A DNA stretch of 32,000 nt from Candidatus Brocadia sp. Lineage in GTDB: Bacteria > Planctomycetota > Brocadiia > Brocadiales > Brocadiaceae. The position numbers and the translations under genes are program-made. Positions 2,322-28,133 of this stretch are shown here, piece by piece (positions within the stretch are counted from its first letter, which is position 1; every line of letters begins with the position of its first letter). The DNA is taken from the NCBI GenBank assembly GCA_021650915.1, contig CP091279.1:1560001-1592000 (forward strand), given 5' to 3'. The notes under the pieces are model-generated. The model saw nothing but the letters and a program-made list of their open reading frames with translations. It ran no database searches and was not told the origin of the DNA.

Positions 2322-2609
2322 ACGGGCAATTCTCTTCCTCAAAAAATAGTGTAGCTGGAACTATCATGATACTGATCGTTGTTCATAAATAGTATTTCCG
2401 GATAAAAGTATCTTTATCTCCGTCCCCGTATCTAAGCGGAGACACGTTTCACCTCCCTTGTATCAATTAATTGAGCATCTTTCGCCGTCTTTGACGTAAG
2501 CCTGGCCGTAAGCCACACCGAAGACTCATCATGCGGTGTCATCTTAGGAGGAGGACAAATTTGATTGCGTCTGTGTTGCGTTATACAATCTCATTCAGGA
2601 GGTTTTTCC

Positions 2610-3158
2610 ATGCTAAACCTCTCTAATAAAATCAGTCTCAGCAGGATACTTTTTATTCCTCCGCTGGTGTTGTGCATCATACAGGTTCAGCATAACAATC
2701 TGTACCGGTATGTATGTCTTTTTATTATGATGCTCATCGGGTTGAGCGACATGCTGGACGGTTATTTTGCGCGGAAGAGAAATGAAATAACTAACTTGGG
2801 AAGATATCTGGACCCGGTTGCAGACAAGCTCGTCCTGATGGTCTCTTGTATCATCCTTTCCTCCGATCATATATGGCCGGAACCAAGATTTCCCAATTGG
2901 ATTACGGCGGTGATTGTCTGCAGAGACCTGGTGCTCATGGTTGGCACCATTGCACTGCTGATCATTACTGGCAGAATGGACTGCCAACCAATCATGCTGG
3001 GCAAAGTTACCACAGGCCTTCAAATTATTGCCATCATATCCGTGTTTCTCGGAAACCATATCCCCTTAACGTTCCTCATTGCGATCTGGTGGCTGGTCGT
3101 CATTTTAACCTTCATTTCCGGACTTCTCTATATGTACAGAGGCGTAAAGCAATTGTGA
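2610..3158 (+). CDS. CDP-alcohol phosphatidyltransferase family protein (PgsA-like)
   Basis: Signature D-G-x2-A-R-x8-G-x3-D-x3-D seen as DMLDGYFARKRNEITNLGRYLDPVADK, with several hydrophobic helices. The track ORF starts at 2565. I prefer ATG 2610 because AGGAGG (2597-2602) sits 7 nt upstream. Confidence 0.8.
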   Translation: MLNLSNKISLSRILFIPPLVLCIIQVQHNNLYRYVCLFIMMLIGLSDMLDGYFARKRNEITNLGRYLDPVADKLVLMVSCIILSSDHIWPEPRFPNWITAVIVCRDLVLMVGTIALLIITGRMDCQPIMLGKVTTGLQIIAIISVFLGNHIPLTFLIAIWWLVVILTFISGLLYMYRGVKQL

Positions 3159-6495: not shown

Positions 6496-6656
6496 ATTTA
6501 GTAACACTTTAGTTTTTTGAAAAAGTAGGGGCGAAGCATTTGCCTGCTTGGGGTGTGAATACATTTATATCAATTTATGGCAAATGCTTCGCCCTTACAC
6601 CGTGCGGTAACATTGTTATTATTGTAATTTTTCAAAAAACTAAAGTGTTACTAAAT
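6496..6656 (+). repeat. MITE-like nested-palindrome element, copy A
   Basis: Perfect 29-bp terminal inverted repeats atttagtaacactttagttttttgaaaaa / tttttcaaaaaactaaagtgttactaaat. They enclose an inner long hairpin gtaggggcgaagcatttgcc (6525-6544) ... ggcaaatgcttcgcccttac (6579-6598). Related copies at 11067, 15237 and 24772. Confidence 0.8.
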
Positions 6657-8471: not shown

Positions 8472-9842
8472 ATGAAAAAGAGGGTGCTGGGTGTTATTTT
8501 ATTCGGTTTGGTTCTTTATCCGGTTTTAAGCGCTGATTCCAAAGCTCAGGGGAAGGAAGTATCTGTTACCATTTATCAGAACAATTTTGGTCTTGTTCGC
8601 GATGTTCGTGAGATGGAGTTAAAGGCGGGCGTTCAGGAGATTCGGTTTACGGATGTTGCGTCCCAGATTGACCCCACTTCCGTCCATTTTAAATCACTGA
8701 CCGCGCCTGATCAGGTTGCCATTCTTGAGCAGAATTATGAATATGACCTGGTGAGTGCAGAAAAGATATTGCAAAAATATATCGATCAGGTCGTTCAGCT
8801 CTATACCAAGGAGGGCAAGATTTTTGAAGGGAAATTGCTCAGCGCCGGCGGGAATGTAGTTCTTGAAAAGAAGGACGGTGGCATTCAGTCCATCGCCATG
8901 GCGAACGTGCAGAATGTGGACTTTCCCAAACTGCCTGCAGGTCTCATCACCCGCCCAACCCTGGTGTGGTATCTCTCAAATGAAAAAGAAGGAAGGCATA
9001 GTATGGAAACGAGCTATGTAACGGAAGGGATTGGCTGGCATGCAGAGTACGTGGCATTAGTGAATCATACTGATACACAACTGGATCTATCTGCATGGGT
9101 ATCCGTGAATAATCAGTCGGGCGCCGATTACGAGCATGCCAAACTGAAATTGATAGCAGGTGACGTCCACCGGATAACTCCGCCGTCGCCACGCTACATG
9201 GATTATGAAGTACAGGCAATGGCTAAAGCCGCACCGGCCAGGCAATTTGAGGAAAAGGCCTTTTTCGAGTATCATCTTTACACGCTCCAGCGCGCCGCTA
9301 CGATTAAAAATAATCAGATCAAGCAGCTCGCGCTTTTTCCCACGGCAACTACACCCGTGAAAAAGATTTTTGAATATGACGGATCGAAAAACGAGAAGAA
9401 GGTCAACGTGAAACTGGAATTCGAAAATACCGAAAAAAATGGCTTGGGAATCCCCGTTCCCGCGGGAAAGGTGCGGGTCTATAAATCTGACGAGGACCAA
9501 TCTCAGGTGTTTATTGGCGAAGACCAGATCGACCATACCCCGAAGGATGAAAAAATCCGGCTGTATGTGGGAGATGCATTTGACGTGGTTGGAGAACGGA
9601 AGCAAATGGGTTATAAACAATTAAGCGACCGGGCACGGGAGGAGACGTGGGAGATCAAATTGCGCAATCATAAAAAAGAGGATATTGAAGTGCTCGTGAC
9701 GGAACATCTCTGGGGTGATTGGGAAATCCGTGAAACCTCTCATCCCTATAACAAAAAGGACGCCAGCACCATCGAAATGGTAATTCCGGTGAAAAAAGAT
9801 GCGGAGGCCATTGTAAAATACACGGTCTTATATCGCTGGTAG
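8472..9842 (+). CDS. secreted DUF4139/DUF4140-like protein (TIGR02231-type conserved hypothetical)
   Basis: 456 aa with a signal-peptide-like N-terminus MKKRVLGVILFGLVLYPVLSADS. VSVTIYQNNFGLVRDVREMELKAGVQEIRFTDVASQIDPTSVHFKS and GWHAEYVALV...LSAWVSVNNQSGADYEHAKLKLIAGDV resemble the DUF4140/DUF4139 pattern as I recall it. GGAGG precedes the ATG. Confidence 0.6.
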   Translation: MKKRVLGVILFGLVLYPVLSADSKAQGKEVSVTIYQNNFGLVRDVREMELKAGVQEIRFTDVASQIDPTSVHFKSLTAPDQVAILEQNYEYDLVSAEKILQKYIDQVVQLYTKEGKIFEGKLLSAGGNVVLEKKDGGIQSIAMANVQNVDFPKLPAGLITRPTLVWYLSNEKEGRHSMETSYVTEGIGWHAEYVALVNHTDTQLDLSAWVSVNNQSGADYEHAKLKLIAGDVHRITPPSPRYMDYEVQAMAKAAPARQFEEKAFFEYHLYTLQRAATIKNNQIKQLALFPTATTPVKKIFEYDGSKNEKKVNVKLEFENTEKNGLGIPVPAGKVRVYKSDEDQSQVFIGEDQIDHTPKDEKIRLYVGDAFDVVGERKQMGYKQLSDRAREETWEIKLRNHKKEDIEVLVTEHLWGDWEIRETSHPYNKKDASTIEMVIPVKKDAEAIVKYTVLYRW

Positions 9843-9883
9843 TTGAATTGCATGGGAATATTCATCATATTTAAACAGGTTCT

Positions 9884-9914
9884 GGGGTGGCACGGACAAA
9901 ATCTTTTGTCCGTG
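9884..9914 (+). repeat. ggtggcacggacaa hairpin repeat, possible terminator
   Basis: ggggtgg + cacggacaaa atct tttgtccgtg (10-bp stem). The same hairpin family recurs at 24661-24691 and, inverted, at 24935-24965. Confidence 0.55.
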
Positions 9915-10068
9915 TCTCATGAAAACTGACAGGGTTGGTTTTGTCCTGATTATGCGCCTTTTGAGTAGAGCGCCGTTCTTGATAAGTCAGTCAAACTATC
10001 ACACCGAATACTCATAACAAAGCCTCCTCTTTCGGGATGACGGGGATCAGGAGTGGTTATAATTCACC

Positions 10069-10998
10069 ATGATTAATATTTATAAAAGTACAAATCACCG
10101 GCTTGAGACGGTGGATACACCAACCGAAGGATGCTGGGTCAACGTGGTAGATCCCAGCGTGCAGGAGATTGCACAGATCGAAGAATTGGGTATTCCTGCT
10201 GACTTTGTAACCCATTCCCTCGATATAGACGAGCGGGCACACACAGAACGAAATGATGGCATCGTCCTTATTGTGCTTCGTGTGCCTTACGAAGAGGATG
10301 CGAAGGCGCAGATCCCTTATAGTACCGTACCTCTTGGGATTATTTTAACCAATACGCTTATAGTAACCATTTGCAGGACAGAAACAAGTGTTGTTCGGAA
10401 ATTCATCACCGGTCAAATACCAGAGTTATCTACGGTCAAAAAAAACCGGTTTGTCCTCCATCTGCTCCTCCGTACGGCCGTTCAATACCTTGAGTATTTA
10501 CGGGGCATCGATTCGTCTGTTGACGCGCTTGAAGACAGGCTCTATCGGTCATTACAAAACAAGGAAGTCATGGATTTGTTAAAATACCAGAAGAGCCTGG
10601 TCTATTTCACCACTGCTTTGAAGTCCAATGAACTCATGCTGGAGCGCATGCAAAAAGGCCAGTTATTCCAGGCATATCCTGAAGATGCGGAACTGCTGGA
10701 AGACGTGCTTATTGAAATCCGCCAGGCAATCGAAATGACCTATATCTCAGAAAACATCCTCAGCCAGATGATGGATGCGTTTGCATCGATCATTTCTAAT
10801 AATTTAAACGTCGTCATGAAAATCCTGACTTCAATAACCATGGTAATCAGTCTTCCCACCCTCATCGCCAGTTTGTATGGCATGAACGTCAGCCTTCCCG
10901 GACAACACTATCCGTATGCATTTGCATTGACACTGCTGGTTTCTCTGATGATATCTGCGATTGTTGTGATTGTTTTTTGGAAGAAGAAATGGCTGTAA
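10069..10998 (+). CDS. corA: CorA-family magnesium/cobalt transporter
   Basis: 309 aa. A soluble N-domain is followed by two C-terminal TM helices flanking the signature YGMN (SLYGMNVSLPG). Confidence 0.88.
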   Translation: MINIYKSTNHRLETVDTPTEGCWVNVVDPSVQEIAQIEELGIPADFVTHSLDIDERAHTERNDGIVLIVLRVPYEEDAKAQIPYSTVPLGIILTNTLIVTICRTETSVVRKFITGQIPELSTVKKNRFVLHLLLRTAVQYLEYLRGIDSSVDALEDRLYRSLQNKEVMDLLKYQKSLVYFTTALKSNELMLERMQKGQLFQAYPEDAELLEDVLIEIRQAIEMTYISENILSQMMDAFASIISNNLNVVMKILTSITMVISLPTLIASLYGMNVSLPGQHYPYAFALTLLVSLMISAIVVIVFWKKKWL

Positions 10999-11066: not shown

Positions 11067-11216
11067 GCAACATTTTAGTTTATTGAAAAATCCTAATAAT
11101 AGCGATGTTTAACACCCAGGGTAGGGGCGAAGCATTTGCTGCAACCGGAATAAATCCACTCATACCCAATCAGGCAAATGCTTCGCCCCTACTTTTTCAA
11201 AAAACTAACCTGTTAC
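11067..11216 (-). repeat. MITE-like nested-palindrome element, copy B (inverted relative to A/C/D, termini degenerate)
   Basis: gcaacattttagtttattgaaaaa ... gtaggggcgaagcatttgc (11121-) ... ggcaaatgcttcgcccctac (11173-11192) tttttcaaaaaactaacctgttac. The asymmetric 30-nt arm lies on the left here, versus on the right in copies A and C. The element ends 16 bp from the stop of the 1200-aa gene. Confidence 0.75.
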
Positions 11217-11231
11217 GGTGCCGCACCTAAA

Positions 11232-14200
11232 TCAATCATCATAGTATCTGATATATGATGGATATAATATTTGATAAATACGATCAAGTTCATCAAAGAT
11301 TTTACGTGCAGTCTTGCTGTCTCGTGTTTCCTGAGAAACCCTGCCAAAAACCTCGTTAATTACATGGTAGCCTAGTGTCCTGTAGGCTTCAAACTGGGAT
11401 TCATCAAACATTTGATTGAGCGTGGTTTGATGGGGGAATGACTTGTTCTGCATCTTGTAACTCTTAATTTCCAGTGACTCGTTGCCGGTCAATGATGACT
11501 TGATGTAAACGAGGACACCATTTCTGGCAGGTTCTGGATCGACTTTTTCGTATTCAATGGTTCCTATAGCATAGTGGCTGCCGCTGATTCCCGAATCTTT
11601 ATTCCTCTTCATCCGTTCTACATTGATGGAAATAGTAACGCCGAAGTCGGTGCGGCATTTTTCAATGGCATTTGCAAGGTCTCCAAACTCCATATCGGGG
11701 TCTTCACCCACGTCGCAGGCAACGATGTACCGGCACCGTCTCCGAACAAGTTCATAAATGCCGAGGTTCTCAAAGTGACCCCCATCGGAAAGATAAACGT
11801 ATCTCTTACGGTCATCGCTCCACCCGAATAGTTCTTTCAGGAGATAATACAACCCTGAGCAACCAGGCCAATGAAAACATATTCTCGCCACAAGATGCCA
11901 TGCTTTCGAGAGACAACACAACACTGGACAAGTAGGTCTCCTATACTTCTTGAAGTTTTTTTTATGTCTCGGATTGACGAACCACTGGCCAAGGCGAACA
12001 TTAAACACCGTCATGATAAAGGCGAGGGCGCCTGACGAACGGTATCCCATGCTGGGACTTACCGCGGCGCCAGAGATGGCCATGGCATCCCCAAGGGTAA
12101 ATGGCTTATCACCATCATTCACATCTTTCCATGAACGGTATGCATCCTTTTCCAAATCCTTTCCATTCTCCTTAGAAGTGTGTTTATGATTAGACGTATA
12201 GCCATAGTGCAGGGGGGTAAAAACAAAGGATGCCGCCTTACGCTGTTGCCAGGCGAGTTCTTCCCCTTTTGTCAAATTAAGGGTCGCATTTATGATGGGG
12301 TAAGGACCGCTATAACACTTATCGGAAAGAAATTCGCTGATTGCTATTTTTGTATCCTCTGCACCAAGATACGCACGTTTCAGCCTGTCCTTATACAGGG
12401 TGTGAAGTGAAAGGGAGTTGATATTCATCCCACTGGCAATAACAATAGCAAAAACAAAAACTCCAAAAAAAGTACCAAGCAGTATCCACCAATTAGATGT
12501 TTTATCTAAGCTAAATACATGAGGCAACCAGGCTGAGATTATAATGGCTCCAACGATGATACTGCACATCCCTAAAGCTATTGCCAACTTAAAACCCCAT
12601 TTTGCGCCCCTTCCTTCAGTACCCAGGATAAATCTCTGTAACAGCCCGCTTATAACGATCATTGCATTGACCCAGGCAAAGGTAGCGAAAGACTGAAATC
12701 CGATAACGATTATTCCTGATATTTCTTTTCCAAAAATGGTTACAGCAAACAATGCGGTTGTCAGCGCCGTCCAGCCAAGAAGAGATACGGCAAAACGTCC
12801 GAGATTATTCCTCTCGTCCTCGGTGAAGGTATCTCTGGACAGTAAGAACCAAAGAGCGCCTGCAAAAAGAAAAATCAGTATAACCGTGGGCATGCCAAAA
12901 CACGCGAAGACCAAACGGCTAAGTTTGCCACTTTTACTTTTCGGGCAATCATTAGGAAACATCTCCTCAATGAGGAGGCGGTTAAGTTTTTTGACGTTGT
13001 TCCTCTCTTCTACATCCATCTCAGAAAACTGTTTCTTCCGGGAATCAGAGGTCTTTTCTGCTAAATTGTTTACCTTATAACTGAAGTTAAAATAACATAT
13101 CCTATCGTATAAGGCAGGGTACTGTATCAATTTATTAAGCCATTGAATATAGCTTTCTTCTTTGGATTTGGACAACTTATCATCAGGCTTTTTAACTCGC
13201 AAACTATCAGTAACATCTATAATTTTTTTGGCGTTTCTATAAAGGTTTCGAATTTTATAATGCGGGAATCTTGTTGGGTAAATTTCATTCAACAAAAACC
13301 AATTTAGATTTTTAATCTTTTCTTCACACCCGAAAAATATAGGAAAAGATTTTTTGCGACAATCTTCTGTTTTTTCTATAAAATAATTTATCTCCTCATT
13401 ATTGGGAAATTTGCGATAATTCTTCCACGTAAAATTGTCATAGAGATGAGTAATTTCCAACATCTCATTGAAATGTGCAATAGTATTTTCGTGGGCTTTG
13501 AAATGTGTATCGTTATCATCTATGATCCCATCATTTCTTAGCGTTGTACAAAGTGCTTCTACTTTTGATAAATCAATAAACTCGTCCTCCCTGAAATCAC
13601 CGGTGATGACTCTTTTCTGCATCCATATCCAGTTTGATAAAAAAAAGAGTAGTCCTCCAGTAACGCCTCCCGCAATCAAAAACATTATTGTTTTTATAAA
13701 TATTTTTTTTATTTGCTTTTCATTTATTGTGATTGTGAAAAGCACCCAGAGAAAATTGAGGAGTAGGAATACTGCGAAAACCCACTTCCAGTAATTTTCC
13801 GATTCAATATAATAATATCCCTTCCATATTCCGTCGCCAAGTAATAAGACTCCTATAATCATTACAAAAGACAACCGCTTCCGTTCCTTTGGACCGCTAA
13901 GGAAGCTGATGCAAATGACAATAAATATAAAGGGAATGCTCCAACACGCTATATTCATATAGCGATAAAGGGGCGCCGCTGGGTGATAAAAAAAGATGAG
14001 TAGTAAATGAGTAAAGGTTATCATGGAGAAAAGAACAGATACGAGGATGAGCAGATTGAAGAATGAGTTGCGCAGGTATGTTGTAAGGAGCAACCAGGTA
14101 TCAGTCCCCAATAACCCCTTTTGTGGTGTCAGATAGTTGCTGTAGTCCCGCAGGTGATGGATTTCGTCAGGCTCCTTCTTATTATGCTTGCTCCAGTCAG

Positions 14201-14834
14201 GATGGAGGTTGTTAATAACGATCCACCTGCCTTTGTTTCTTATCCATGCTACCAGCCAGCTTCCGATATAACCGCCACCGGATACCGTTGATAGATATTT
14301 AAAGATGGGGAGTATGCCCAATTCTGCCATGCCCTGCAACACACCAAGGTTAAAGGTGGCGCTGCGAATTCCACCGCCGGAGAAGGCAAGGCCAACGAAT
14401 GAAGCTTCATGGGCTTCTGAATATATTACATCATATATTACATCTTCGTAATATTCATAAGAATTTTTTATAAGAAGACGATACAGTTCTTTTTTGTCCT
14501 CGCTTAAATCAGTGTCTTGTTTATTTTTGCCATCATTTTTTATTTTTTCATATAACTTATTTATTTTATCTGAAAACTTGAAATCGGGGTTTCCTTCCTT
14601 TAAAGCGTCATATAATAAAACGAGGTTTTTCGAGAGGTCATCATCGTTTGATTTAGACAAACGAAATAGAAGCGACCATAATTCTTTGGGGTCTTTTTTT
14701 TTAATTATTTCTTTAAAGTTAAGTTGATTTAAGTTAGATTCATTTATAGGATGCTCTTGAATTACTCGCGAGAGTTCTTCAGTGAAGATTTGCTCGAAGC
14801 TCAAGGCGGTTGATTCCGATGGTTTTCCTGACAT
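11232..14834 (-). CDS. giant membrane-embedded patatin-like phospholipase with split catalytic domain
   Basis: 1200-aa uninterrupted ORF with GGAGG 8 nt upstream of the ATG. Patatin motifs: GLAFSGGGIRSATFNLGVLQG (aa 148-168, oxyanion loop), STVSGGGYIGSW (Ser185, codon 14280-14282; a T-V-S-G-G variant of GxSxG) and YLSDGGHFENLGIYELVRRRC (Asp1017 in D-G-G, codon 11784-11786). Hydrophobic multi-helix blocks lie at about aa 244-405 and 641-800. A charged soluble insert spans about aa 411-640. Confidence 0.8.
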   Translation of the reverse strand: MSGKPSESTALSFEQIFTEELSRVIQEHPINESNLNQLNFKEIIKKKDPKELWSLLFRLSKSNDDDLSKNLVLLYDALKEGNPDFKFSDKINKLYEKIKNDGKNKQDTDLSEDKKELYRLLIKNSYEYYEDVIYDVIYSEAHEASFVGLAFSGGGIRSATFNLGVLQGMAELGILPIFKYLSTVSGGGYIGSWLVAWIRNKGRWIVINNLHPDWSKHNKKEPDEIHHLRDYSNYLTPQKGLLGTDTWLLLTTYLRNSFFNLLILVSVLFSMITFTHLLLIFFYHPAAPLYRYMNIACWSIPFIFIVICISFLSGPKERKRLSFVMIIGVLLLGDGIWKGYYYIESENYWKWVFAVFLLLNFLWVLFTITINEKQIKKIFIKTIMFLIAGGVTGGLLFFLSNWIWMQKRVITGDFREDEFIDLSKVEALCTTLRNDGIIDDNDTHFKAHENTIAHFNEMLEITHLYDNFTWKNYRKFPNNEEINYFIEKTEDCRKKSFPIFFGCEEKIKNLNWFLLNEIYPTRFPHYKIRNLYRNAKKIIDVTDSLRVKKPDDKLSKSKEESYIQWLNKLIQYPALYDRICYFNFSYKVNNLAEKTSDSRKKQFSEMDVEERNNVKKLNRLLIEEMFPNDCPKSKSGKLSRLVFACFGMPTVILIFLFAGALWFLLSRDTFTEDERNNLGRFAVSLLGWTALTTALFAVTIFGKEISGIIVIGFQSFATFAWVNAMIVISGLLQRFILGTEGRGAKWGFKLAIALGMCSIIVGAIIISAWLPHVFSLDKTSNWWILLGTFFGVFVFAIVIASGMNINSLSLHTLYKDRLKRAYLGAEDTKIAISEFLSDKCYSGPYPIINATLNLTKGEELAWQQRKAASFVFTPLHYGYTSNHKHTSKENGKDLEKDAYRSWKDVNDGDKPFTLGDAMAISGAAVSPSMGYRSSGALAFIMTVFNVRLGQWFVNPRHKKNFKKYRRPTCPVLCCLSKAWHLVARICFHWPGCSGLYYLLKELFGWSDDRKRYVYLSDGGHFENLGIYELVRRRCRYIVACDVGEDPDMEFGDLANAIEKCRTDFGVTISINVERMKRNKDSGISGSHYAIGTIEYEKVDPEPARNGVLVYIKSSLTGNESLEIKSYKMQNKSFPHQTTLNQMFDESQFEAYRTLGYHVINEVFGRVSQETRDSKTARKIFDELDRIYQILYPSYIRYYDD

Positions 14835-15236
14835 ATATACCTCCGGATGCAGATATGAAGATGGGAATTGTCATATGAATGGTTGCAGGCAGTAAAACAA
14901 AAATTTTAAAAAATTTCAAGTCTAATTTTCCGCTTTTTGAAATGGATCTATCATTATTCCGATCACGGCTAAAGATAATCTTTGCGCAAAGTCATTGCAG
15001 TGCAATTTTAAATACACGGGAATATTTTCCATTTCAAATCTTTGTCCTGTTTGGTATATTCTCCAGAACAGATATCCTGGCGCAACCAAGTCACCCATAG
15101 AAACTTACTGTTGGACAATTTTTCGGCTGGACAAAATGACCCTAATTGGGCAAGTATCATGTAAAACAACTATTTTTACAGGTTTTTTGTAACTTTCAGC
15201 ATACTTTCGGCTACAATCACTACACGTGAACAAATG

Positions 15237-15384
15237 GTAACACTTTAGTTTTTTGAAAAAGTAGGGGCGAAGCATTCGCCTGCTTGGGGTGTGAACGCAT
15301 TTATGCCAATTTATGGCAAATGCTTCGCCCCTACACAGTGCGGCAACATTGTTATTGTAATTTTTCAAAAAACTAAAGTGTTAC
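15237..15384 (+). repeat. MITE-like nested-palindrome element, copy C
   Basis: Perfect 24-bp termini gtaacactttagttttttgaaaaa / tttttcaaaaaactaaagtgttac. Inner hairpin gtaggggcgaagcattcgcc ... ggcaaatgcttcgcccctac (15261-15334). Nearly identical to copy A. Confidence 0.8.
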
Positions 15385-15402
15385 AACAAATGTTGATTCT
15401 GT

Positions 15403-15563
15403 AATCCCGAAGGGATGACATGATTATAGCATATTGTCACGCAATTACGGTTAACACCATAGGGGTGGCATGGCATCTTCATTTTCCCCTTATTTCACCC
15501 CTTACGGGGTTGAATAGGGTGGTGGTGTGCTTTTTTCTATAAGCATGTCATCCCTTCGGGATT
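15403..15563. repeat. second palindromic element class (20-bp terminal inverted repeats)
   Basis: aatcccgaagggatgacatg (15403-15422) and catgtcatcccttcgggatt (15544-15563) are perfect reverse complements. The interior contains a further small hairpin ttcaccccttacggggttgaa. Confidence 0.65.
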
Positions 15564-15694
15564 TCCGGTCTATCCATTTTTCTTGTTGGCCCTAAACCAT
15601 TCAGAGAAAATATTCTCTGTCAATTTTTGCTGAATAGTTACGGTTTCCTTAACTTGATAGTATAGGATTTTCATTTTATTTAAGCGGGTTTGCG

Positions 15695-21435: not shown

Positions 21436-22398
21436 CTACTCCTGTCCGCGCTTGCCTTCTTGACGGAAACTCTTTAAATACTGGAAGTAGTCTCCATCCG
21501 TCGTCAAAATGAGATGCGTCTGTTTATCAAACGTTGTTTCGTAGGTTTGCAGCGTTTTGGTAAAGGAATAAAATTCTGGCGCCTTTTCATACGCCTCGGC
21601 GTAGATCTTCACCGCCTCGGCATCCGCCTGGCCTTTAATTTCCTCGGCCGTCCGGTATCCTTCCGACTCGATACGCTCCAGTTCTCTCTTCATCGAACCC
21701 AGAATCTCCGCCTCTTCCTTCCGTCCCTCTGATTCATACTTATTCGCAATACGGATACGTTCGGAACGCATTCGGTCATATATCTTGGGGATAACGGCCT
21801 CCACGTAATTGATATACTTGATCCGGACGTCAATCAATTCAATTCCATACCGACCCTCCAGCGCACGCAAAGCCATTTTCTTTATTTCTTCGCTGATTTT
21901 GTCGCGTCCCATGATAATCTGCACCTTTTTAATATCCTCCGCCTCTTCCAGCTCCTTTGTCGTATATTCGAGCTTCCGGTTCGAATTTCTGAGAACCTCC
22001 TTTAAGGTGTAAGAACTGACTACGTTTTTTACTGCCGATTCGATCACTTCGTCCAACACACGCATCCCGCGTTCTTCTGTACCCAGGGAGGTATAGAACT
22101 TCAGCGATTCTGAGATCTTCCATCGCGCCCAGGCCCCTACCCCGATGTTTTCCTTGTCCCGTGTAAGGATGTCGCTCGGTTCTCCGCTCCACTCCAGGAG
22201 TCTTTTATCAAAATATCTGACCTCCTGGATAAAGGGGGTTTTCACACAAAGGCCGGGATCCGTAACGGTCTTGACGGGCCTCCCAAACTGCGTAATAACT
22301 GCCTGCTGTCTGACATCCACAACATAGAGCGACGCTTTCAGACAGATAATCACACTAGCAACGACAATAAGGGCAATAATAATGGCTGCTTTTTTCAT
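21436..22398 (-). CDS. hflC: protease modulator HflC (SPFH/band 7 domain)
   Basis: 320 aa. An N-terminal TM helix, then LYVVDVRQQAVITQFGRPVKTVTDPGLCVKTPFIQEV, typical of HflC. Its start overlaps the hflK stop by 4 nt, suggesting translational coupling. Confidence 0.88.
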   Translation of the reverse strand: MKKAAIIIALIVVASVIICLKASLYVVDVRQQAVITQFGRPVKTVTDPGLCVKTPFIQEVRYFDKRLLEWSGEPSDILTRDKENIGVGAWARWKISESLKFYTSLGTEERGMRVLDEVIESAVKNVVSSYTLKEVLRNSNRKLEYTTKELEEAEDIKKVQIIMGRDKISEEIKKMALRALEGRYGIELIDVRIKYINYVEAVIPKIYDRMRSERIRIANKYESEGRKEEAEILGSMKRELERIESEGYRTAEEIKGQADAEAVKIYAEAYEKAPEFYSFTKTLQTYETTFDKQTHLILTTDGDYFQYLKSFRQEGKRGQE

Positions 22399-23399
22399 TT
22401 CTTCACATCCTCCTCATGAAGTCCCAGGATCGGCAAAAAACCTTCGATCTCTTTGTCGAAAACGTACAGCTTTTCACATTTGGGAAGAATCTTTGCCATG
22501 GTTTCCAGAAAGAGTCTGCGCCGGGTTACGTCCTCAGCCTTTTTGTATTCTTCAAATACGGCCAGAAATGCCCTAACATCACCGGTGGCTTCGTTTACCC
22601 TTCGAATCCGGTATCCTTCAGCCTCTTTGATCACCTGCTCCTTTTTCCCTTCTGCTGCCGGCAGTATTTTATTCTTCTGCCCTTCAGCATCATTGACGAT
22701 CCTGTCTCTGATTTGAATCGCCTGATTTACCGCATTAAAGGCGTCCTTTACCGGCGCTGGCGGATCGACTCCTTTTAGCAATACCGTCTGGATGTCAATA
22801 CCGCACTTATAACTATCCAGAACCGACTGGATATCTTCCCGGGCCTTTTGCTCTATCTCTGTCCTGCCAATCGTCAGCACTTCGTCAACAGAGCGGTCGC
22901 CCACCAATGTCCGCATAACCGCCTGTGAAACGCCGCGAATCGTTTCGCGCACATTCCTCACATTAAAATAGTACTCCTCGATTAGCTTTATCTTGTAACG
23001 AATAACCCAATGCACCTCTGCGCAGTTCAGGTCACCGGTAAGCATCAACTTCTCTTCAGCGGCATCGGGATAATCATAATTAACCGCAAAAGAAGCGCCG
23101 CGTGACTCTGTCCGGAATCCGAACTCTTCATTGTAAATACGCTTTACCTCTCCCTTCAGTACCCGGTCGATGTGATAAGGAATCTTTGAATGAAGCCCGG
23201 GACCCACCGTTTTTATGTACCGGCCAAACCGCAGCACCACCGCTTCTTCATTTGCCTTCACGGTATAAAAGGACGTGTAGCCGGTAATAATGATAAAAAC
23301 GATAATCAAGGACGGCGGTATAAACTTTTTTATCGATCCCCAGGGGATATCTTCAAGACGGATTTCCTGAGGTTTTCTGTACGGATCATAACTTGGCAT
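22395..23399 (-). CDS. hflK: protease modulator HflK (SPFH/band 7 domain)
   Basis: A TM helix, then FYTVKANEEAVVLRFGRYIKTVGPGLHSKIPYHIDRV, typical of HflK. The track ORF extends to 23531. I prefer ATG 23399 (MPSYDPYRK), which is preceded by AAAGGAGAA. Confidence 0.86.
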   Translation of the reverse strand: MPSYDPYRKPQEIRLEDIPWGSIKKFIPPSLIIVFIIITGYTSFYTVKANEEAVVLRFGRYIKTVGPGLHSKIPYHIDRVLKGEVKRIYNEEFGFRTESRGASFAVNYDYPDAAEEKLMLTGDLNCAEVHWVIRYKIKLIEEYYFNVRNVRETIRGVSQAVMRTLVGDRSVDEVLTIGRTEIEQKAREDIQSVLDSYKCGIDIQTVLLKGVDPPAPVKDAFNAVNQAIQIRDRIVNDAEGQKNKILPAAEGKKEQVIKEAEGYRIRRVNEATGDVRAFLAVFEEYKKAEDVTRRRLFLETMAKILPKCEKLYVFDKEIEGFLPILGLHEEDVKK

Positions 23400-23568
23400 A
23401 TCGTTTTCTCCTTTTCTGCTGCTATAGCGTTTACCCTCGGTCTTTTTACAACCCTCCTTAGCCCATCTTAATAAAGGCAGATTTAGCGGGTTGTTTCTCT
23501 TATGGGAACGGTCTGAAATTCCCCTTAGCAAATGTATGGCGTACTCATATCCTCCCGACTCTTTTACA

Positions 23569-26116: not shown

Positions 26117-26983
26117 ATGAACATGAGTGCGTTTGTCTTGAGCCATGAGGTTCTCATTCGTCTCGGCGCTTTTTTTGGTGTCTTAGCGATTATGACCCTG
26201 TGGGAGCTGATAGCGCCCAGGCGGACGCTCACGGCCCCGAAGATGCTTCGCTGGATGAACAATCTCGGTATCACATTCCTGAACAGTTTTCTGTTGCGCA
26301 TCATCTTTCCCGCTGCGGCTGCGGGCATGGCGACATTTGCTCAAAAGCACGGCTGGGGCATTTTCAATTACTTCCGGTTACCGCACAGTATGGTTGTCGT
26401 GGTATCGGTAATAATCATGGACTTCGCTATCTATCTGCAGCACGTGATGTTTCATGCAGTCCCTGTTTTCTGGCGAATGCACCGCATGCACCATGCTGAT
26501 CCGGACATTGACGTCACCACGGGTGTGCGGTTTCACCCCTTCGAGATCATCCTCTCCATGCTGATTAAATTTGCGGTAATTGCAGCGCTGGGGACACCCG
26601 TGCTTGCGGTAGTCGTATTTGAGGTGACACTCAATGCGACGTCCCTGTTCAACCACGGTAATGTGCGCATCCTGCGCAGCGTAGACTCCGTGCTACGCTG
26701 GTTCATGGTAACACCCGACATGCACCGGGTGCACCACTCAATGGAGGGTTACGAGACCAACAGCAACTTCGGTTTCAACCTGCCATGGTGGGACCGCTGG
26801 TTAGGCACCTACCGGGCACAGCCGCGCATGGGTCACGAAGGCATGGCCATCGGTCTCAGGGATTTCCAGGACACAAAGCGCTGTATAACTCTGCCTGGCA
26901 TGCTGGCAATTCCCTTCATTGGCAAGGTCACAGCCTATGCAATCACAAGTCGCACATGGGAGGAATCAAAAGATGGCCATTAA
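26117..26983 (+). CDS. fatty acid hydroxylase / sterol desaturase superfamily membrane protein
   Basis: 288 aa. Hydrophobic N-half and three histidine boxes: HVMFH, HRMHH and HRVHH (the di-iron ligand pattern HxxxH, HxxHH, HxxHH). Confidence 0.8.
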   Translation: MNMSAFVLSHEVLIRLGAFFGVLAIMTLWELIAPRRTLTAPKMLRWMNNLGITFLNSFLLRIIFPAAAAGMATFAQKHGWGIFNYFRLPHSMVVVVSVIIMDFAIYLQHVMFHAVPVFWRMHRMHHADPDIDVTTGVRFHPFEIILSMLIKFAVIAALGTPVLAVVVFEVTLNATSLFNHGNVRILRSVDSVLRWFMVTPDMHRVHHSMEGYETNSNFGFNLPWWDRWLGTYRAQPRMGHEGMAIGLRDFQDTKRCITLPGMLAIPFIGKVTAYAITSRTWEESKDGH

Positions 26984-27122
26984 CTTGATGCGTTCCCGTT
27001 TTGTAATTTCAGACAGGGAGTCTGCTGCGCTCAGATTTCAGGAGCCTTACCAGGGAAAATCCTTCTCTTTCAATGATGATAAATCCTTGCCATAATAACA
27101 AAAAAGCGGTAAGATAAAACCG

Positions 27123-28133
27123 ATGAAAGAAGCAATGTTTTTTGAAAAACTTGGGGACGATAAGGTAAAATGCTATCTTTGTCGTCACCATTGTATTATC
27201 AATGAAGGCAAAAAAGGTATTTGCCGGGTCAGGGAAAACCGTGCGGGAACACTCTATTCACTTGTCTATAGAAAACTTATCTCTGAAAATATAGACCCGA
27301 TTGAAAAGAAGCCTCTCTTTCACTTTTATCCTGGCAGTACCGCACTTTCTGTGGCAACGGTAGGATGCAATTTCAGGTGCATGAACTGCCAAAATTATGA
27401 AATATCCCAATTGCCAGAAGATCAAGACTCTATTGCAGGCAAAGACATTGCACCAGAAAAGATTGTTGAGGATGCCGTCCGTAATCAGTGTAAAAGTATT
27501 GCATATACGTATACTGAACCCACAATTTTTTTTGAGTATGCATACGAAATTGCAAAAATAGCGTCACAACAATCTGTCAAAAACGTATTCGTAACAAATG
27601 GGTATATAACACGCGAAGCCTTAGCAACAATAAAGCCGTATCTTCATGCAGTTAATATTGACTTAAAAAGCTTCTCCAGCCAAACATATAAAAAAATCTA
27701 CGGCGCTCAGCTGGAGCAGGTGCTTGATGGTATCCGTTCTTATAAAGAAATGGGAATCTGGATAGAAATTACCACCCTGATCATTCCAGAAATTAACGAT
27801 TCAGCATCGGAATTGCGACAGATTGCTGGGTTTATAAAGAGTGTTGGGCCCGAGATCCCCTGGCATGTGAGTCGTTTTTACCCGCGGTACCGGCTCATGG
27901 GAAAACCGCCAACGCCGGTAGATACGTTAAAAATGGCTCGTAATATAGGTCTTGAGGTAGGTCTCCGTTATGTCTACGAAGGGAATGTTCCTGGCGAAGG
28001 CGGTGAAAATACCTATTGCTACCATTGTAAAAGGCTCCTTATCAAAAGATACGGATACCAGATCCTCGAAAACGACATCGTCAATCTAAGGTGTCCATCA
28101 TGCAACACAACCATCGACGGAATTGGTATATAG
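27123..28133 (+). CDS. radical SAM enzyme, AmmeMemoRadiSam-system type (PflA/NrdG activase superfamily)
   Basis: 336 aa. N-terminal Cys cluster KCYLCRHHCIINEGKKGICRVREN, DPIEKKPLFHFYPGS, and the radical SAM CxxxCxxC seen as GCNFRCMNCQNYEISQ. This block order matches the TIGR04337-type family as I recall it. Confidence 0.8.
   Translation: MKEAMFFEKLGDDKVKCYLCRHHCIINEGKKGICRVRENRAGTLYSLVYRKLISENIDPIEKKPLFHFYPGSTALSVATVGCNFRCMNCQNYEISQLPEDQDSIAGKDIAPEKIVEDAVRNQCKSIAYTYTEPTIFFEYAYEIAKIASQQSVKNVFVTNGYITREALATIKPYLHAVNIDLKSFSSQTYKKIYGAQLEQVLDGIRSYKEMGIWIEITTLIIPEINDSASELRQIAGFIKSVGPEIPWHVSRFYPRYRLMGKPPTPVDTLKMARNIGLEVGLRYVYEGNVPGEGGENTYCYHCKRLLIKRYGYQILENDIVNLRCPSCNTTIDGIGI

What the first reader, a model, noticed from the sequence alone, without database searches (positions are those of the whole stretch)
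11232..14834. 1200-aa patatin-like phospholipase with its catalytic dyad split by about 830 residues of membrane and insert sequence
The sequence shows the three patatin hallmarks: SGGGIRS (aa 152-158), the nucleophile elbow T-V-S-G-G (Ser185) and D-G-G (Asp1017). In canonical patatin/cPLA2-like domains the Ser and Asp lie within one compact domain of roughly 150-250 residues. Here they are separated by two polytopic hydrophobic blocks (about aa 244-405 and 641-800, each with several predicted helices) and a 230-aa charged soluble insert. A Lys/Asp-rich 145-aa N-terminal extension precedes the oxyanion loop. The C-lobe ends in SFPHQTTLNQMFDESQFEAYRTLGY. No cyclase, sensor or partner gene is adjacent, so this is a single-gene unit. 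Composition is strikingly uneven. By hand count, line 13681-13740 has 9 G+C of 60 and line 12001-12060 has 32 of 60. The TM/insert portion therefore looks foreign relative to the catalytic C-lobe and the neighbouring genes. Patatin lipases are known effectors of abortive-infection systems (for example CBASS CapV). My hypothesis is a self-contained, membrane-gated lipase that works as a defence effector-sensor fusion or a dedicated membrane-remodelling enzyme. This is inference.
Basis: partly seen in the sequence, partly recalled or inferred. Interest (0 to 1): 0.85.

Follow-up and report, generated by a model that had tools for sequence, protein, structure and literature searches.

The report
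Membrane-embedded cPLA2-like lipase, Brocadia variant
This anammox bacterium gene encodes a lipid-cleaving enzyme of the patatin/cPLA2 type whose catalytic domain is interrupted by about ten membrane-spanning helices. That layout is the hallmark of a very large, unstudied bacterial family rather than a one-off, and nothing links it to phage defence.

Summary
ORF 11232-14834(-) encodes 1200 aa with SGGGIRS, TVS185GG and D1017GG. Two hydrophobic blocks of about five helices each lie between Ser and Asp.

The split dyad is not peculiar to this gene. It defines a family with 6,730 50%-identity clusters at E<=1e-30, present in at least 591 GTDB species across many phyla. In that family Ser and Asp are 568-821 residues apart, with 7-11 hydrophobic segments between them. 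AlphaFold gives a confident model (pTM 0.74), and its best PDB matches are human cPLA2 alpha and delta. Charge bias puts the catalytic domain in the cytoplasm.

Only the 235-aa insert, most of the N-terminal extension and a 26-aa duplication are specific to Brocadia or to this gene. The insert is an internally duplicated helical module in an outward-facing loop.

Defence evidence is negative. There is no PADLOC hit, no phage copy, no conserved partner and no defence-island context. Synteny with housekeeping genes holds in Brocadia and Nitrospira.

In Brocadia the gene is AT-richer and evolves faster than its neighbours (dN/dS 0.35-0.45 against 0.05-0.14). It is frameshifted in three related assemblies and has an unusually conserved upstream leader.

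Best reading: an integral-membrane phospholipid acyl-hydrolase or remodelling enzyme, function untested.

The parts
11232..14834 (-). Complete CDS, 1200 aa plus stop: polytopic-membrane cPLA2-like (patatin superfamily) Ser-Asp acyl hydrolase
   Evidence: The ORF is intact. P0001 is 100% identical, and full-length Brocadia orthologues exist. AF2 gives pLDDT 76.9 and pTM 0.74.
14757..14801 (-). N-terminal helix aa 12-26 (FEQIFTEEL...), conserved across the family (consensus F..VL..EL.EI)
   Evidence: Occupancy is 0.85 in distant homologues. E20 is nearly invariant. pLDDT is about 93.
14415..14756 (-). Lineage-specific Lys/Asp/Asn-rich helical N-terminal extension, aa 27-140, low G+C
   Evidence: Occupancy is 0.07-0.6 in distant homologues. 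It is present in L011 but much shorter in P0002 and P0003. G+C is 0.313. Pfam finds nothing.
14106..14414 (-). Catalytic N-segment aa 141-243. It holds the strand-GGGIR oxyanion/phosphate loop (aa 153-157, window 14364-14378), the nucleophile elbow T-V-S185-G-G (window 14274-14288) and the conserved LRxYSNYLTP motif.
   Evidence: Pfam Patatin E 1.2e-7. S152-S158, S185 and G186-G188 are invariant in 99 sequences. The family profile aligns this stretch to cPLA2-delta (E 0.006). pLDDT is 87-98.
13632..14105 (-). Membrane block 1, aa 244-401: five predicted TM helices (254-283, 291-311, 321-342, 348-368, 379-401)
   Evidence: Supported by hydropathy and AF2 helices. It aligns family-wide at occupancy 0.76-1.0. 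K/R-rich loops at 312-320 and 369-378 lie on the catalytic side.
13689..13714 (-). A/T homopolymer-rich stretch (A8 and others) encoding the K-rich TM4-TM5 loop. Two other Brocadia assemblies are frameshifted at the equivalent place.
   Evidence: Sequence and frame comparison with L001, L002 and L003.
12927..13631 (-). Brocadia-specific 235-aa insert (aa 402-636) in the TM5-TM6 loop. It is predicted to be extracytoplasmic, helical, low in G+C and under purifying selection.
   Evidence: Occupancy is about 0 in 95 distant homologues. That loop is 5-33 aa elsewhere in the family. The insert is present in all Brocadia orthologues. dN/dS is 0.37-0.42. Pfam finds nothing. pLDDT is below 50.
13236..13490 (-). 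Internal repeat unit 1 of the insert (aa 449-533)
   Evidence: Local alignment against unit 2 scores 98, compared with 29.9 +/- 5.3 (maximum 52) in 500 shuffles.
12915..13157 (-). Internal repeat unit 2 of the insert (aa 560-640)
12429..12926 (-). Membrane block 2, aa 637-802: five predicted TM helices (637-660, 681-701, 708-733, 746-773, 782-802). The family motif REWW in the TM6-TM7 loop is replaced by ERNNLG in Brocadia.
   Evidence: Supported by hydropathy, AF2, occupancy of about 1.0 and the motif comparison.
11340..12428 (-). Catalytic C-lobe aa 803-1165. It holds the post-TM amphipathic helix, the rest of the central sheet, block III SGAAVSP (aa 921-927, window 12054-12074), block IV D1017-G-G after a strand (window 11778-11786) and the FPHQTT...QFEAYRxLG end.
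   Evidence: Nearly invariant columns are listed. pLDDT is mostly above 90, and strand 1012-1016 precedes DGG. The whole model matches cPLA2 1cjy and 5iz5 over 444-459 columns with probability 1.0. No Pfam hit when scanned alone.
11868..11945 (-). A 26-aa Cys-rich insertion (aa 964-989) found only in this gene. It is a diverged local duplication of the following helix (CPVLCCLSKA resembles CSGLYYLLKE).
   Evidence: It is absent from L011, P0002-P0005 and all distant homologues. The DNA repeat is visible. pLDDT is 29-38.
14835..15097 (-). Upstream leader/promoter region, unusually conserved among Brocadia species. The proximal 115 nt or so include a TTGAAA box and a GGAGG ribosome-binding site.
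   Evidence: It is 89% identical over 238 nt to L001 and 81-86% to L011, L093 and L094. Neighbouring intergenic regions barely align. There is no real Rfam match. The RNA fold z-score is -1.9.
11124..11189 (.). REP/MITE-like palindrome (arms GGGGCGAAGCATTTGCC) 43 nt downstream of the stop codon
   Evidence: Six arm matches in the window against 0 expected.
15264..15331 (.). A second copy of the same palindrome, about 430 nt upstream of the start codon. A third copy lies at 6528-6595. L011 carries one inside the leader.

Best explanation
The gene encodes an integral inner-membrane acyl hydrolase of the patatin/cPLA2 superfamily. It belongs to a very large, uncharacterised bacterial family.

Architecture. 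A membrane domain of about ten helices is inserted inside the catalytic domain. The insertion lies between the strand-GGGxR-helix-strand-Ser elbow segment (patatin blocks I-II) and the rest of the alpha/beta core (blocks III-IV, including the catalytic Asp). The two soluble pieces fold together on the cytoplasmic face into one cPLA2-like domain.

Inferred mechanism:
- The enzyme is tethered permanently to the bilayer, whereas cPLA2 is recruited to it.
- Its active-site funnel faces the cytoplasmic leaflet and takes glycerophospholipid or lysophospholipid substrates directly from the membrane.
- Ser185 acts as nucleophile, Asp1017 as general base, the GGG loop as oxyanion hole and the invariant Arg157 as phosphate ligand.
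- The membrane domain probably controls substrate access.

Inferred role: membrane phospholipid turnover, remodelling or quality control, not phage defence.

The Brocadia proteins are a fast-evolving offshoot:
- They gained an outward-facing, internally duplicated 235-aa helical module in the TM5-TM6 loop and a longer N-terminal helical extension.
- They lost two family-invariant cytoplasmic motifs, REWW and RxPxPFTGFD.
- They keep the catalytic residues under purifying selection.
- Expression appears to be governed by an unusually conserved upstream region.

What is shown: the anatomy, family membership, fold, distribution, genomic context and evolutionary rates. What is inferred: topology, substrate, gating and physiological role.
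For: Motifs and hydrophobic blocks.

Conservation: S185 and the GGGIR loop are invariant. D1017, block III and many C-lobe residues are at least 90% conserved in 99 sequences.

Fold:
- Full-length AF2 model: pTM 0.74, with both catalytic pieces at pLDDT of about 90 or more.
- Top Foldseek PDB hits are cPLA2-alpha 1cjy (E 4.6e-4, probability 1.0, 459 columns) and cPLA2-delta.
- The family profile aligns the oxyanion loop and the Ser to cPLA2-delta.

Family-wide architecture:
- More than 7,600 word-index hits.
- 6,730 cluster representatives at E<=1e-30.
- At least 591 GTDB species.
- Ser-Asp spacing of 568-821 aa with 7-11 hydrophobic segments in 74 species.
- Both TM blocks are at occupancy of about 1.

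Topology: K+R counts near the TM ends are 13.8 on the catalytic side and 6.1 on the opposite side, higher on the catalytic side in 93 of 95 homologues. No signal peptide precedes the 100-240 aa N-segment.

Context:
- Housekeeping neighbours in the window.
- Synteny in Brocadia and Nitrospira.
- No recurrent neighbour (at most 7 of 80 loci, at most 3 of 143 by Pfam) and only sporadic PADLOC hits.
- No PADLOC match for the protein itself and none in phages.

Selection: dN/dS is 0.23-0.29 in the C-lobe and 0.37-0.42 in the insert.
Against: - No biochemical or genetic data exist for any member. I found no paper on the family.
- I could not read model coordinates, so Ser185-Asp1017 proximity rests on pLDDT, pTM and the Foldseek alignment length. 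It is not a measured distance.
- TM-scores to cPLA2 are low (TMt 0.33, rmsd 9 A) because the whole 1200-aa model was the query.
- The C-lobe alone has no sequence-level match to Pfam or PDB.
- A constitutively membrane-tethered phospholipase needs tight control, and I can only guess at how that works.
- In Brocadia the gene does not behave like a typical housekeeping gene:
  - GC3 is 0.425 against 0.51-0.59 in the neighbours.
  - dN/dS is 3-6 times that of the neighbours, and dS is about half.
  - Three of seven assemblies carry frameshifts.
- In rhizobia the family is patchy and sits on megaplasmids.
Confidence: 0.55

Rival explanations
1. A self-contained defence or abortive-infection sensor-effector. 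The membrane domain and its loop-inserted modules sense infection or envelope damage and unleash the lipase to destroy the cell's own membrane.
For: - Patatin lipases are known CBASS effectors (CapV; PMC12480259, listed).
- Family members accrete different soluble modules in membrane loops or at the N-terminus: the Brocadia insert, 1-3 DUF1080 copies and TIG. This is reminiscent of sensor diversification.
- In Brocadia the gene is AT-richer, has high dN/dS and low dS relative to its neighbours, and is repeatedly frameshifted.
- Presence on rhizobial megaplasmids is patchy.
Against: - No PADLOC model matches.
- There is no copy in 50,697 phage records.
- No partner gene is conserved, and defence genes lie next to only a few of 80 loci.
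- Position between housekeeping genes is stable in two genera.
- Catalytic parts remain about 40% identical across phyla, which is unusual for arms-race proteins.
- No part has dN/dS above 1.
Confidence: 0.12
2. The same fold and location, but the chemistry is acyl transfer rather than hydrolysis. The enzyme would be a transacylase or N-/O-acyltransferase that remodels membrane lipids, as some cPLA2 paralogues are. In Brocadia it might be adapted to its unusual (ladderane) lipids.
For: - The closest structures are group IV cPLA2 enzymes. From my own knowledge, that family includes transacylases and the NAPE-forming PLA2G4E.
- Permanent immersion next to acyl acceptors would favour transfer.
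- About half of the homologues carry an extra 350-aa C-terminal domain that ends in an RxxGxA-like motif. This reading of the motif is my inference.
Against: - There is no direct evidence.
- The query lacks the C-terminal domain.
- That domain has no PDB sequence match.
- Nothing ties the gene to ladderane biosynthesis genes.
Confidence: 0.15
3. In Brocadia the gene is a decaying or dispensable remnant under relaxed selection. It is intact in this genome by chance and has little physiological role.
For: - Frameshifts at homopolymer runs occur in L001/L002, L003 and L094.
- dN/dS is 0.35-0.45 against 0.05-0.14 for the neighbours.
- The family-invariant REWW and PFTGFD motifs are lost.
- Extra insertions and duplications have accumulated.
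Against: - Four assemblies keep an ORF of about 1,070-1,200 codons intact.
- dN/dS stays well below 1 everywhere and is lowest in the catalytic lobe.
- All dyad and oxyanion residues are kept.
- The upstream region is more conserved than any neighbouring intergenic region.
- Some of the frameshifts may be assembly errors.
Confidence: 0.12
4. The topology is reversed. The catalytic domain faces the periplasm and acts on the outer leaflet or on exogenous lipids.
For: DUF1080 and TIG domains, which are usually extracytoplasmic, lie on the same side as the catalytic domain in some homologues.
Against: - The positive-inside bias favours a cytoplasmic catalytic side in 93 of 95 homologues.
- There is no signal peptide before the long N-terminal soluble segment, including in the TIG-bearing P0011.
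Confidence: 0.04

Closest known systems
Group IV cytosolic phospholipase A2 (human cPLA2-alpha, PDB 1CJY; cPLA2-delta, 5IZ5/5IXC)
   Same: These are the best structural matches: Foldseek probability 1.0 over 444-459 columns. They are also the only PDB sequence matches to the oxyanion loop plus Ser elbow. Shared features are the Ser-Asp dyad, a GGGxR loop with Arg, an SGG/SGS-type elbow, and a large non-core insertion between Ser and Asp. In cPLA2-alpha that insertion is the cap at residues 370-548 with a lid (PMC9862071).
   Different: - No C2 domain.
- The Pfam PLA2_B score is below threshold (12.8 against 23 bits).
- The insertion is a ten-helix transmembrane domain rather than a soluble cap, and it lies between patatin blocks II and III.
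- The enzyme is permanently membrane-integral rather than recruited by Ca2+.
- It is bacterial.
Patatin-like phospholipase / PNPLA domain (Pfam PF01734; patatin 1OXW, PlpD 5FQU, ExoU, VipD)
   Same: All four conserved blocks are present. The Pfam gathering score is passed. Weak Foldseek matches cover the N-segment.
   Different: - The Pfam model matches only its first half (positions 1-98 of 191).
- The first Gly of GxSxG is Thr or Ser family-wide (STVSGGGY in 65 of 74 species).
- The domain is interrupted by about 560-830 residues.
CBASS effector CapV and other defence patatins
   Same: The same catalytic superfamily. The target is presumably the cell's own membrane phospholipid.
   Different: - No PADLOC hit.
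- No cyclase or other partner gene.
- No defence-island context.
- CapV is a small soluble protein activated by a cyclic nucleotide.
Neuropathy target esterase / PNPLA6-Nte1 (membrane-anchored patatin phospholipase B)
   Same: From my own knowledge, the working analogy is a patatin-type enzyme held on the cytoplasmic face of a membrane that deacylates bulk phospholipid for membrane homeostasis.
   Different: NTE has one N-terminal anchor and cNMP-binding domains, and its catalytic domain is contiguous. I found no sequence relationship beyond the superfamily. Not tested here.
PlaF of Pseudomonas aeruginosa (inner-membrane-anchored phospholipase A1)
   Same: From my own knowledge, it is a bacterial inner-membrane-tethered phospholipase that remodels glycerophospholipids.
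   Different: PlaF has an alpha/beta-hydrolase fold with a Ser-Asp-His triad and a single TM helix. It is unrelated in sequence. Not tested here.

Membership tests
Patatin-like phospholipase superfamily (PF01734 / PNPLA) | Block I: glycine-rich oxyanion loop G-G-x-R/K after a beta strand | tested here: met
   SGGGIRS at 152-158 is invariant in 99 sequences. It follows strand 147-152 in the model.
Patatin-like phospholipase superfamily (PF01734 / PNPLA) | Block II: nucleophile elbow G-x-S-x-G | tested here: met
   T-V-S185-G-G. The Ser is invariant. The first Gly is replaced by Thr or Ser across the whole family, so this is a variant of the motif.
Patatin-like phospholipase superfamily (PF01734 / PNPLA) | Block III: A-S-x-x-x-P type motif with conserved Pro | tested here: met
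   AISGAAVSP at 919-927. S921, G922, A923, A924 and P927 are at least 90% conserved.
Patatin-like phospholipase superfamily (PF01734 / PNPLA) | Block IV: catalytic Asp in D-G-G/A after a strand | tested here: met
   YVYLS-D1017-GG follows strand 1012-1016. It is at least 90% conserved and is found in 74 of 80 species ORFs.
Patatin-like phospholipase superfamily (PF01734 / PNPLA) | Pfam gathering threshold | tested here: met
   32.5 bits against 27.7, covering only profile positions 1-98 of 191. The C-lobe alone gives no hit.
Patatin-like phospholipase superfamily (PF01734 / PNPLA) | Ser and Asp brought together in one alpha/beta/alpha domain | tested here: inconclusive
   The AF2 model has pTM 0.74 with both pieces at pLDDT of about 90 or more. 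Foldseek aligns 444-459 columns to cPLA2.
Patatin-like phospholipase superfamily (PF01734 / PNPLA) | Acyl-ester hydrolase activity dependent on the dyad | not testable with these tools
   This needs an enzyme assay with S185A and D1017A controls.
Group IV cPLA2 / PLA2_B (PF01735) | Pfam PLA2_B gathering threshold | tested here: not met
   12.8 bits against 23, over aa 147-216 only.
Group IV cPLA2 / PLA2_B (PF01735) | Closest solved fold is the cPLA2 catalytic domain | tested here: met
   1cjy_A at E 4.6e-4 and 5iz5_A at E 7.4e-4, both with probability 1.0. TM-scores are low because the full-length model was the query.
Group IV cPLA2 / PLA2_B (PF01735) | N-terminal C2 (CaLB) domain and soluble cap/lid | tested here: not met
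   Pfam finds no C2 domain. The inter-dyad insertion consists of ten hydrophobic helices.
CBASS CapV-type / known defence patatin effectors | Match to a defence-system protein model | tested here: not met
   PADLOC-DB v2: no families at E<=1.
CBASS CapV-type / known defence patatin effectors | Adjacent signal-generating or sensor partner gene (CD-NTase and similar) | tested here: not met
   The window neighbours are CorA, DUF4139, aroA and ribD. No neighbour cluster occurs in more than 7 of 80 loci.
CBASS CapV-type / known defence patatin effectors | Location in defence islands or variable regions | tested here: not met
   The position is syntenic in Brocadia and Nitrospira. Only sporadic PADLOC hits occur among 143 immediate neighbours. 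There is none in phages. This was not a formal enrichment test.
TM-inserted cPLA2-like family (unnamed; defined here) | STVSGGGY elbow, about ten TM helices between blocks II and III, the post-TM helix INxFSMHxxYRNRL, the YLSDGGHFENLG Asp motif and the FPHQ..DQ.F.ESQFE.YR.LG end | tested here: met
   All are present in the query.
TM-inserted cPLA2-like family (unnamed; defined here) | REWW motif in the TM6-TM7 loop and RxPxPFTGFD after the last TM (both at least 90% conserved) | tested here: not met
   They are replaced or deleted in the query and in all Brocadia orthologues. The Brocadia clade is therefore a divergent branch of the family.

The most novel reading that the evidence does not exclude
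The inserted ten-helix domain matches no solved fold. It may be a built-in membrane-state sensor or gate for a cPLA2-like active site. The whole family would then be single-polypeptide sensor-effectors that cleave the cell's own phospholipids in response to envelope stress, damage or infection. In that reading, lineage-specific loop modules serve as input domains: the outward-facing duplicated module in Brocadia and the DUF1080 copies in Verrucomicrobia/Planctomycetes-type members.
Probability: 0.2. Interest if true: 0.7.

Novelty: new variant of a known kind. Interest (0 to 1): 0.42.

Why it matters
If the reading is right, bacteria from many phyla carry a cPLA2-like lipase that is built into the membrane rather than recruited to it. 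These include Acidobacteriota, Nitrospira, Proteobacteria, Bacteroidota, Verrucomicrobiota and Planctomycetota.

Databases label these proteins only as 'patatin-like phospholipase family protein', and I found no study of them. Characterising one member would assign a function to thousands of genes. It would also show how a potentially self-destructive lipase is kept in check inside its own substrate.

For anammox biology, the Brocadia-specific outward-facing module and the tightly conserved leader are concrete handles on membrane-lipid turnover in an organism with unusual lipids.

The finding does not open a long-standing question. The catalytic class itself is ordinary.

Tried and rejected
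Searches and tools that gave nothing:
- PADLOC and NCBIfam on the protein returned nothing useful.
- Pfam on the C-lobe, the insert and the N-extension separately gave no hits.
- PDB sequence search with the protein and with the family profile matched only the N-segment to cPLA2. The TM hits were hydrophobic-bias noise.
- Foldseek with a TM-domain-only model found no match (best E 1.7).
- A homology search with the insert alone returned nothing, although P0001-P0006 contain it. I treat this as a tool limitation.
- The first genome scan used patterns from non-conserved stretches and found nothing. The repeat with the alignment worked.
- Rfam found nothing on the window or on the upstream region. 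The only hits were hairpin-like miRNA noise on palindromic elements.
- The promoter and terminator scan was at chance level.
- Five literature searches found no paper on a TM-interrupted patatin/cPLA2 family or on patatins in anammox bacteria.
- The C-terminal extension carried by other family members has no PDB relative.

Ideas rejected:
- That the ORF is an artefactual fusion. Orthologues are collinear and full-length.
- That the TM blocks are foreign insertions. They are family-wide.
- That the 58-aa ORF in the leader is a gene. It is broken by an insertion in L011.

Full report
**1. The observation**

The minus-strand ORF 11232-14834 is intact and encodes 1200 aa. It is the A-x-S-P motif inside AISGAAVSP (919-927) and is nearly invariant among relatives.

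Hydropathy gives five strong hydrophobic segments in aa 254-403 and five in aa 637-810. AlphaFold models them all as long helices.

The hand-counted G+C values are exact: 9/60 and 32/60. G+C by segment:

| Segment | G+C |
|---|---|
| N-extension | 0.313 |
| Insert | 0.336 |
| TM block 1 | 0.372 |
| TM block 2 | 0.429 |
| C-lobe | 0.450 |
| N-segment | 0.502 |
| Whole window | 0.453 |

(All.)

Pfam recognises only aa 149-257 as the first half of the Patatin model (32.5 bits, cut-off 27.7). PLA2_B is sub-threshold. NCBIfam and PADLOC give nothing.

**2. It is a family, not a singleton**

A word-indexed search found more than 7,600 relatives, all 860-1,900 aa long. An exhaustive HMMER scan of 1.84 billion cluster representatives found 6,730 at E<=1e-30 and 16,675 at E<=1e-3.

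At least 591 species carry a relative, spanning these groups:
- Acidobacteriota
- Nitrospira
- Alpha-, Beta- and Gammaproteobacteria
- Bacteroidota
- Verrucomicrobiota
- Planctomycetota
- Chlorobi
- Methylomirabilota

In 74 of these genes the Ser-Asp spacing is 568-821 residues (median 676). Between Ser and Asp there are 7-11 hydrophobic segments (mode 9-10), and in 61 of the 74 there are none elsewhere in the protein.

In a 99-sequence alignment, the oxyanion loop and Ser185 are invariant. Asp1017, block III and dozens of C-lobe positions are at least 90% conserved.

Both TM blocks align across 95 distant homologues at occupancy of about 1.0. In contrast, aa 401-640 has occupancy of about 0, and aa 21-140 has 0.07-0.6. 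So the split dyad is the family hallmark. Only the soluble insert and most of the N-extension are peculiar to Brocadia.

The organism is a Candidatus Brocadia, judged from the source names of P0004 and P0005 and the record title of L011.

**3. Fold**

The full-length AlphaFold model, built on the 99-sequence alignment, has mean pLDDT 76.9 and pTM 0.74. The N-segment (aa 141-230) and most of the C-lobe are at about 90 or above. The insert and aa 967-990 are below 50.

Foldseek against the PDB puts human cPLA2-alpha (1cjy: E 4.6e-4, probability 1.0, 459 columns) and cPLA2-delta first. PlpD, VipD, ExoU and patatin match only weakly, on the N-segment. The family profile aligns the GGGxR loop and the Ser elbow to cPLA2-delta (E 0.006).

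In cPLA2-alpha a 179-residue cap (residues 370-548) with a lid already sits directly before Asp549 (PMC9862071). A large insertion inside this fold is therefore precedented. A transmembrane one is not, as far as I could find.

I could not read the model coordinates, so the Ser-Asp distance is not measured. That step remains inference.

A second model of the membrane region alone (pLDDT 72.5) has no Foldseek match in the PDB (best E 1.7).

**4. Topology (inferred)**

No homologue has a signal peptide before the 100-240-aa N-segment.

In the query, short loops on the catalytic side are K/R-rich:
- 312-320: KERKR
- 369-378: KQIKK
- 734-745

Loops on the other side are not.

Across 95 homologues, K+R within 10 residues of the TM ends averages 13.8 on the catalytic side and 6.1 on the opposite side. 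The count is higher on the catalytic side in 93 of 95. An even number of helices (5 + 5) is also required for the two catalytic pieces to meet.

This places the catalytic domain in the cytoplasm. It places the Brocadia insert in the outward-facing TM5-TM6 loop, which is only 5-33 aa long in other members.

**5. What is special in Brocadia**

- **The insert is an internal tandem duplication.** Units aa 449-533 and aa 560-640 align with a score of 98, against 29.9 +/- 5.3 in shuffles. The insert is present in every Brocadia orthologue. Its dN/dS of 0.37-0.42 shows purifying selection.
- **Two family-invariant cytoplasmic motifs are lost.** These are REWW in the TM6-TM7 loop and RxPxPFTGFD after TM10.
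- **This gene alone has a 26-aa Cys-rich insertion** (aa 964-989), a diverged local duplication.
- **Other lineages put other modules into loops.** One to three DUF1080 copies occupy the TM2-TM3 loop (P0048, P0051, P0094). P0011 has a TIG domain at its N-terminus. About half of the family carries a 350-aa C-terminal extension.

**6. Genomic context**

The window is a housekeeping region. Its genes are:
- a CDP-alcohol phosphatidyltransferase and an epimerase
- ribBA
- an amino-acid permease and an MFS transporter
- DUF4139 and CorA
- the lipase
- aroA and ribD
- an FGE-sulfatase and PfkB
- two SPFH proteins and DapA
- a fatty-acid hydroxylase, a radical-SAM protein and Usp
- a DDE transposase at 30099-31562

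CorA, DUF4139 and MFS flank the gene in two further Brocadia genomes; a Logan contig (L091) also carries CorA beside it. aroA and ribD flank it in two.

In Nitrospira the orthologues are syntenic in 7-8 species.

Across 80 species:
- No neighbour cluster occurs in more than 7 loci.
- No Pfam family occurs in more than 3 of 143 immediate neighbours.
- PADLOC hits are sporadic: one type I R-M locus, one PDC-M03B, and weak HerA/mad8-like hits in five members.

There is no copy in 50,697 phage records. Forty-two plasmid records carry one, mostly rhizobial, Methylobacterium or Burkholderia megaplasmids. They are annotated as hypothetical or 'patatin-like phospholipase family protein'.

**7. Evolutionary behaviour in Brocadia**

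| Measure | This gene | Neighbours |
|---|---|---|
| GC3 | 0.425 | 0.51-0.59 |
| dN/dS | 0.35-0.45 | 0.05-0.14 |
| dS | 0.42-0.49 | 0.73-1.5 |

(GC3; rates.)

Within the gene, the C-lobe is the most constrained part (dN/dS 0.23-0.29) and TM block 1 the least (0.60-0.73).

Three related assemblies are frameshifted at homopolymer runs:
- L001/L002 and L003, in the A/T-rich TM4-TM5 loop
- L094, at a G6 run in TM9

. Assembly error is not excluded.

The roughly 260 nt upstream of the ATG are far better conserved than neighbouring intergenic regions:
- 89% identity over 238 nt to L001.
- The proximal 115 nt or so are kept even where the upstream neighbour differs.

I found no Rfam family, and the fold signal is marginal (z = -1.9).

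REP/MITE-like palindromes lie 43 nt downstream and about 430 nt upstream of the gene, and once elsewhere in the window.

The low dS together with the conserved leader could mean recent exchange of this locus among Brocadia species, or constraint on the nucleotide sequence itself. I cannot tell which.

**8. Interpretation**

What is shown:
- The protein is a patatin-superfamily, cPLA2-like Ser-Asp enzyme.
- Its catalytic domain is interrupted by a conserved polytopic membrane domain.
- It belongs to a huge, uncharacterised, mostly chromosomal and stand-alone family.

What is inferred:
- The active site is cytoplasmic and is fed directly from the inner leaflet.
- The membrane domain anchors the enzyme and probably gates it.
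- The role is phospholipid turnover or remodelling. Hydrolysis is most likely, and transacylation is possible.
- The Brocadia module is an extracytoplasmic add-on of unknown purpose.

The defence hypothesis has no positive support, but it is not excluded. Loop-module accretion and the fast, AT-rich, frameshift-prone behaviour in Brocadia keep it at roughly 10-15%.

**9. Novelty and verdict**

The catalytic class is known, and the genes are already in databases under a generic name. The architecture is a distinct variant of the kind: a ten-helix membrane domain inside a cPLA2-like fold. Five full-text searches found no description of it. The Brocadia form is a further divergent sub-variant.

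Interest is moderate.

Noticed in passing
window 14835-15097 (minus strand); L001 8890-9146; L011 about 9600-10000; L093 and L094 upstream regions: The roughly 260 nt upstream of the lipase start codon are much better conserved among Brocadia species than the CDS or any neighbouring intergenic region: 89% over 238 nt to L001. The proximal 115 nt or so are kept even where the upstream gene differs. This may be a regulatory leader or promoter. There is no Rfam family, and the RNA fold z-score is -1.9.
   Followed up: partly
window 6528-6595, 11124-11189, 15264-15331; L011 inside the leader (about 9700-9800): A REP/MITE-like palindromic element with arms GGGGCGAAGCATTTGCC: six arms in the window against 0 expected by chance. 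Two copies bracket the lipase gene. One copy has inserted into the conserved leader in another Brocadia species. A second long hairpin lies at about 15401-15570.
   Followed up: partly
L001 about 10000-10076 (and L002), L003 about 9985-10016, L094 about 2440-2500; equivalent to window 13689-13714 and about 12540: Three other Brocadia-lineage assemblies have the orthologue split into two overlapping ORFs by frameshifts at homopolymer runs (A/T tracts in the TM4-TM5 loop, and a G6 run in TM9). These could be real pseudogenes, phase variation or assembly errors. The reads were not checked.
   Followed up: partly
window 11232-14834 compared with flanking genes: Between Brocadia species the lipase gene has about half the synonymous divergence of its neighbours (dS 0.42-0.49 against 0.73-1.5) but 3-6 times their dN/dS. 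This is unexplained. It could reflect recent exchange of the locus between species or constraint at the nucleotide level.
   Followed up: partly
window 11868-11945 (aa 964-989): A 26-aa Cys-rich in-frame insertion unique to this genome's copy. It arose by a diverged local duplication of the adjacent helix-coding DNA. AF2 confidence is very low there.
   Followed up: yes
P0048, P0051, P0094, P0011 (homologues elsewhere): Other family members carry one to three DUF1080 (PF06439) domains inside the TM2-TM3 loop, or an N-terminal TIG domain. About half have a 350-aa C-terminal extension ending in an RxxGxA-like motif, with no PDB sequence relative.
   Followed up: partly
aa 670-680 and 825-835 of the query (window about 12795-12825 and 12330-12360): All Brocadia orthologues have lost two motifs that are at least 90% conserved in the rest of the family: REWW in the TM6-TM7 loop and RxPxPFTGFD after the last TM. 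Both lie on the cytoplasmic side. Joint loss suggests the two motifs work together.
   Followed up: partly
window 30099-31562: A 487-aa ORF with a DDE transposase domain (PF01609), in a stretch with strong positive GC skew. It is the only mobile-element gene seen in the window and lies 15 kb from the lipase.
   Followed up: no
window 2565-3158, 21436-23531, 26117-28133: Other membrane or lipid-related genes are in the window: a CDP-alcohol phosphatidyltransferase, two adjacent SPFH/Band-7 proteins, and a fatty-acid hydroxylase next to a radical-SAM enzyme. They are too far from the lipase to argue for a functional link.
   Followed up: no
L009 (Sinorhizobium meliloti ml28 pSymA): The rhizobial plasmid copy (884 aa) sits in what looks like an accessory region, with an HTH regulator, hypothetical proteins and a DUF2235 protein.
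   Followed up: no
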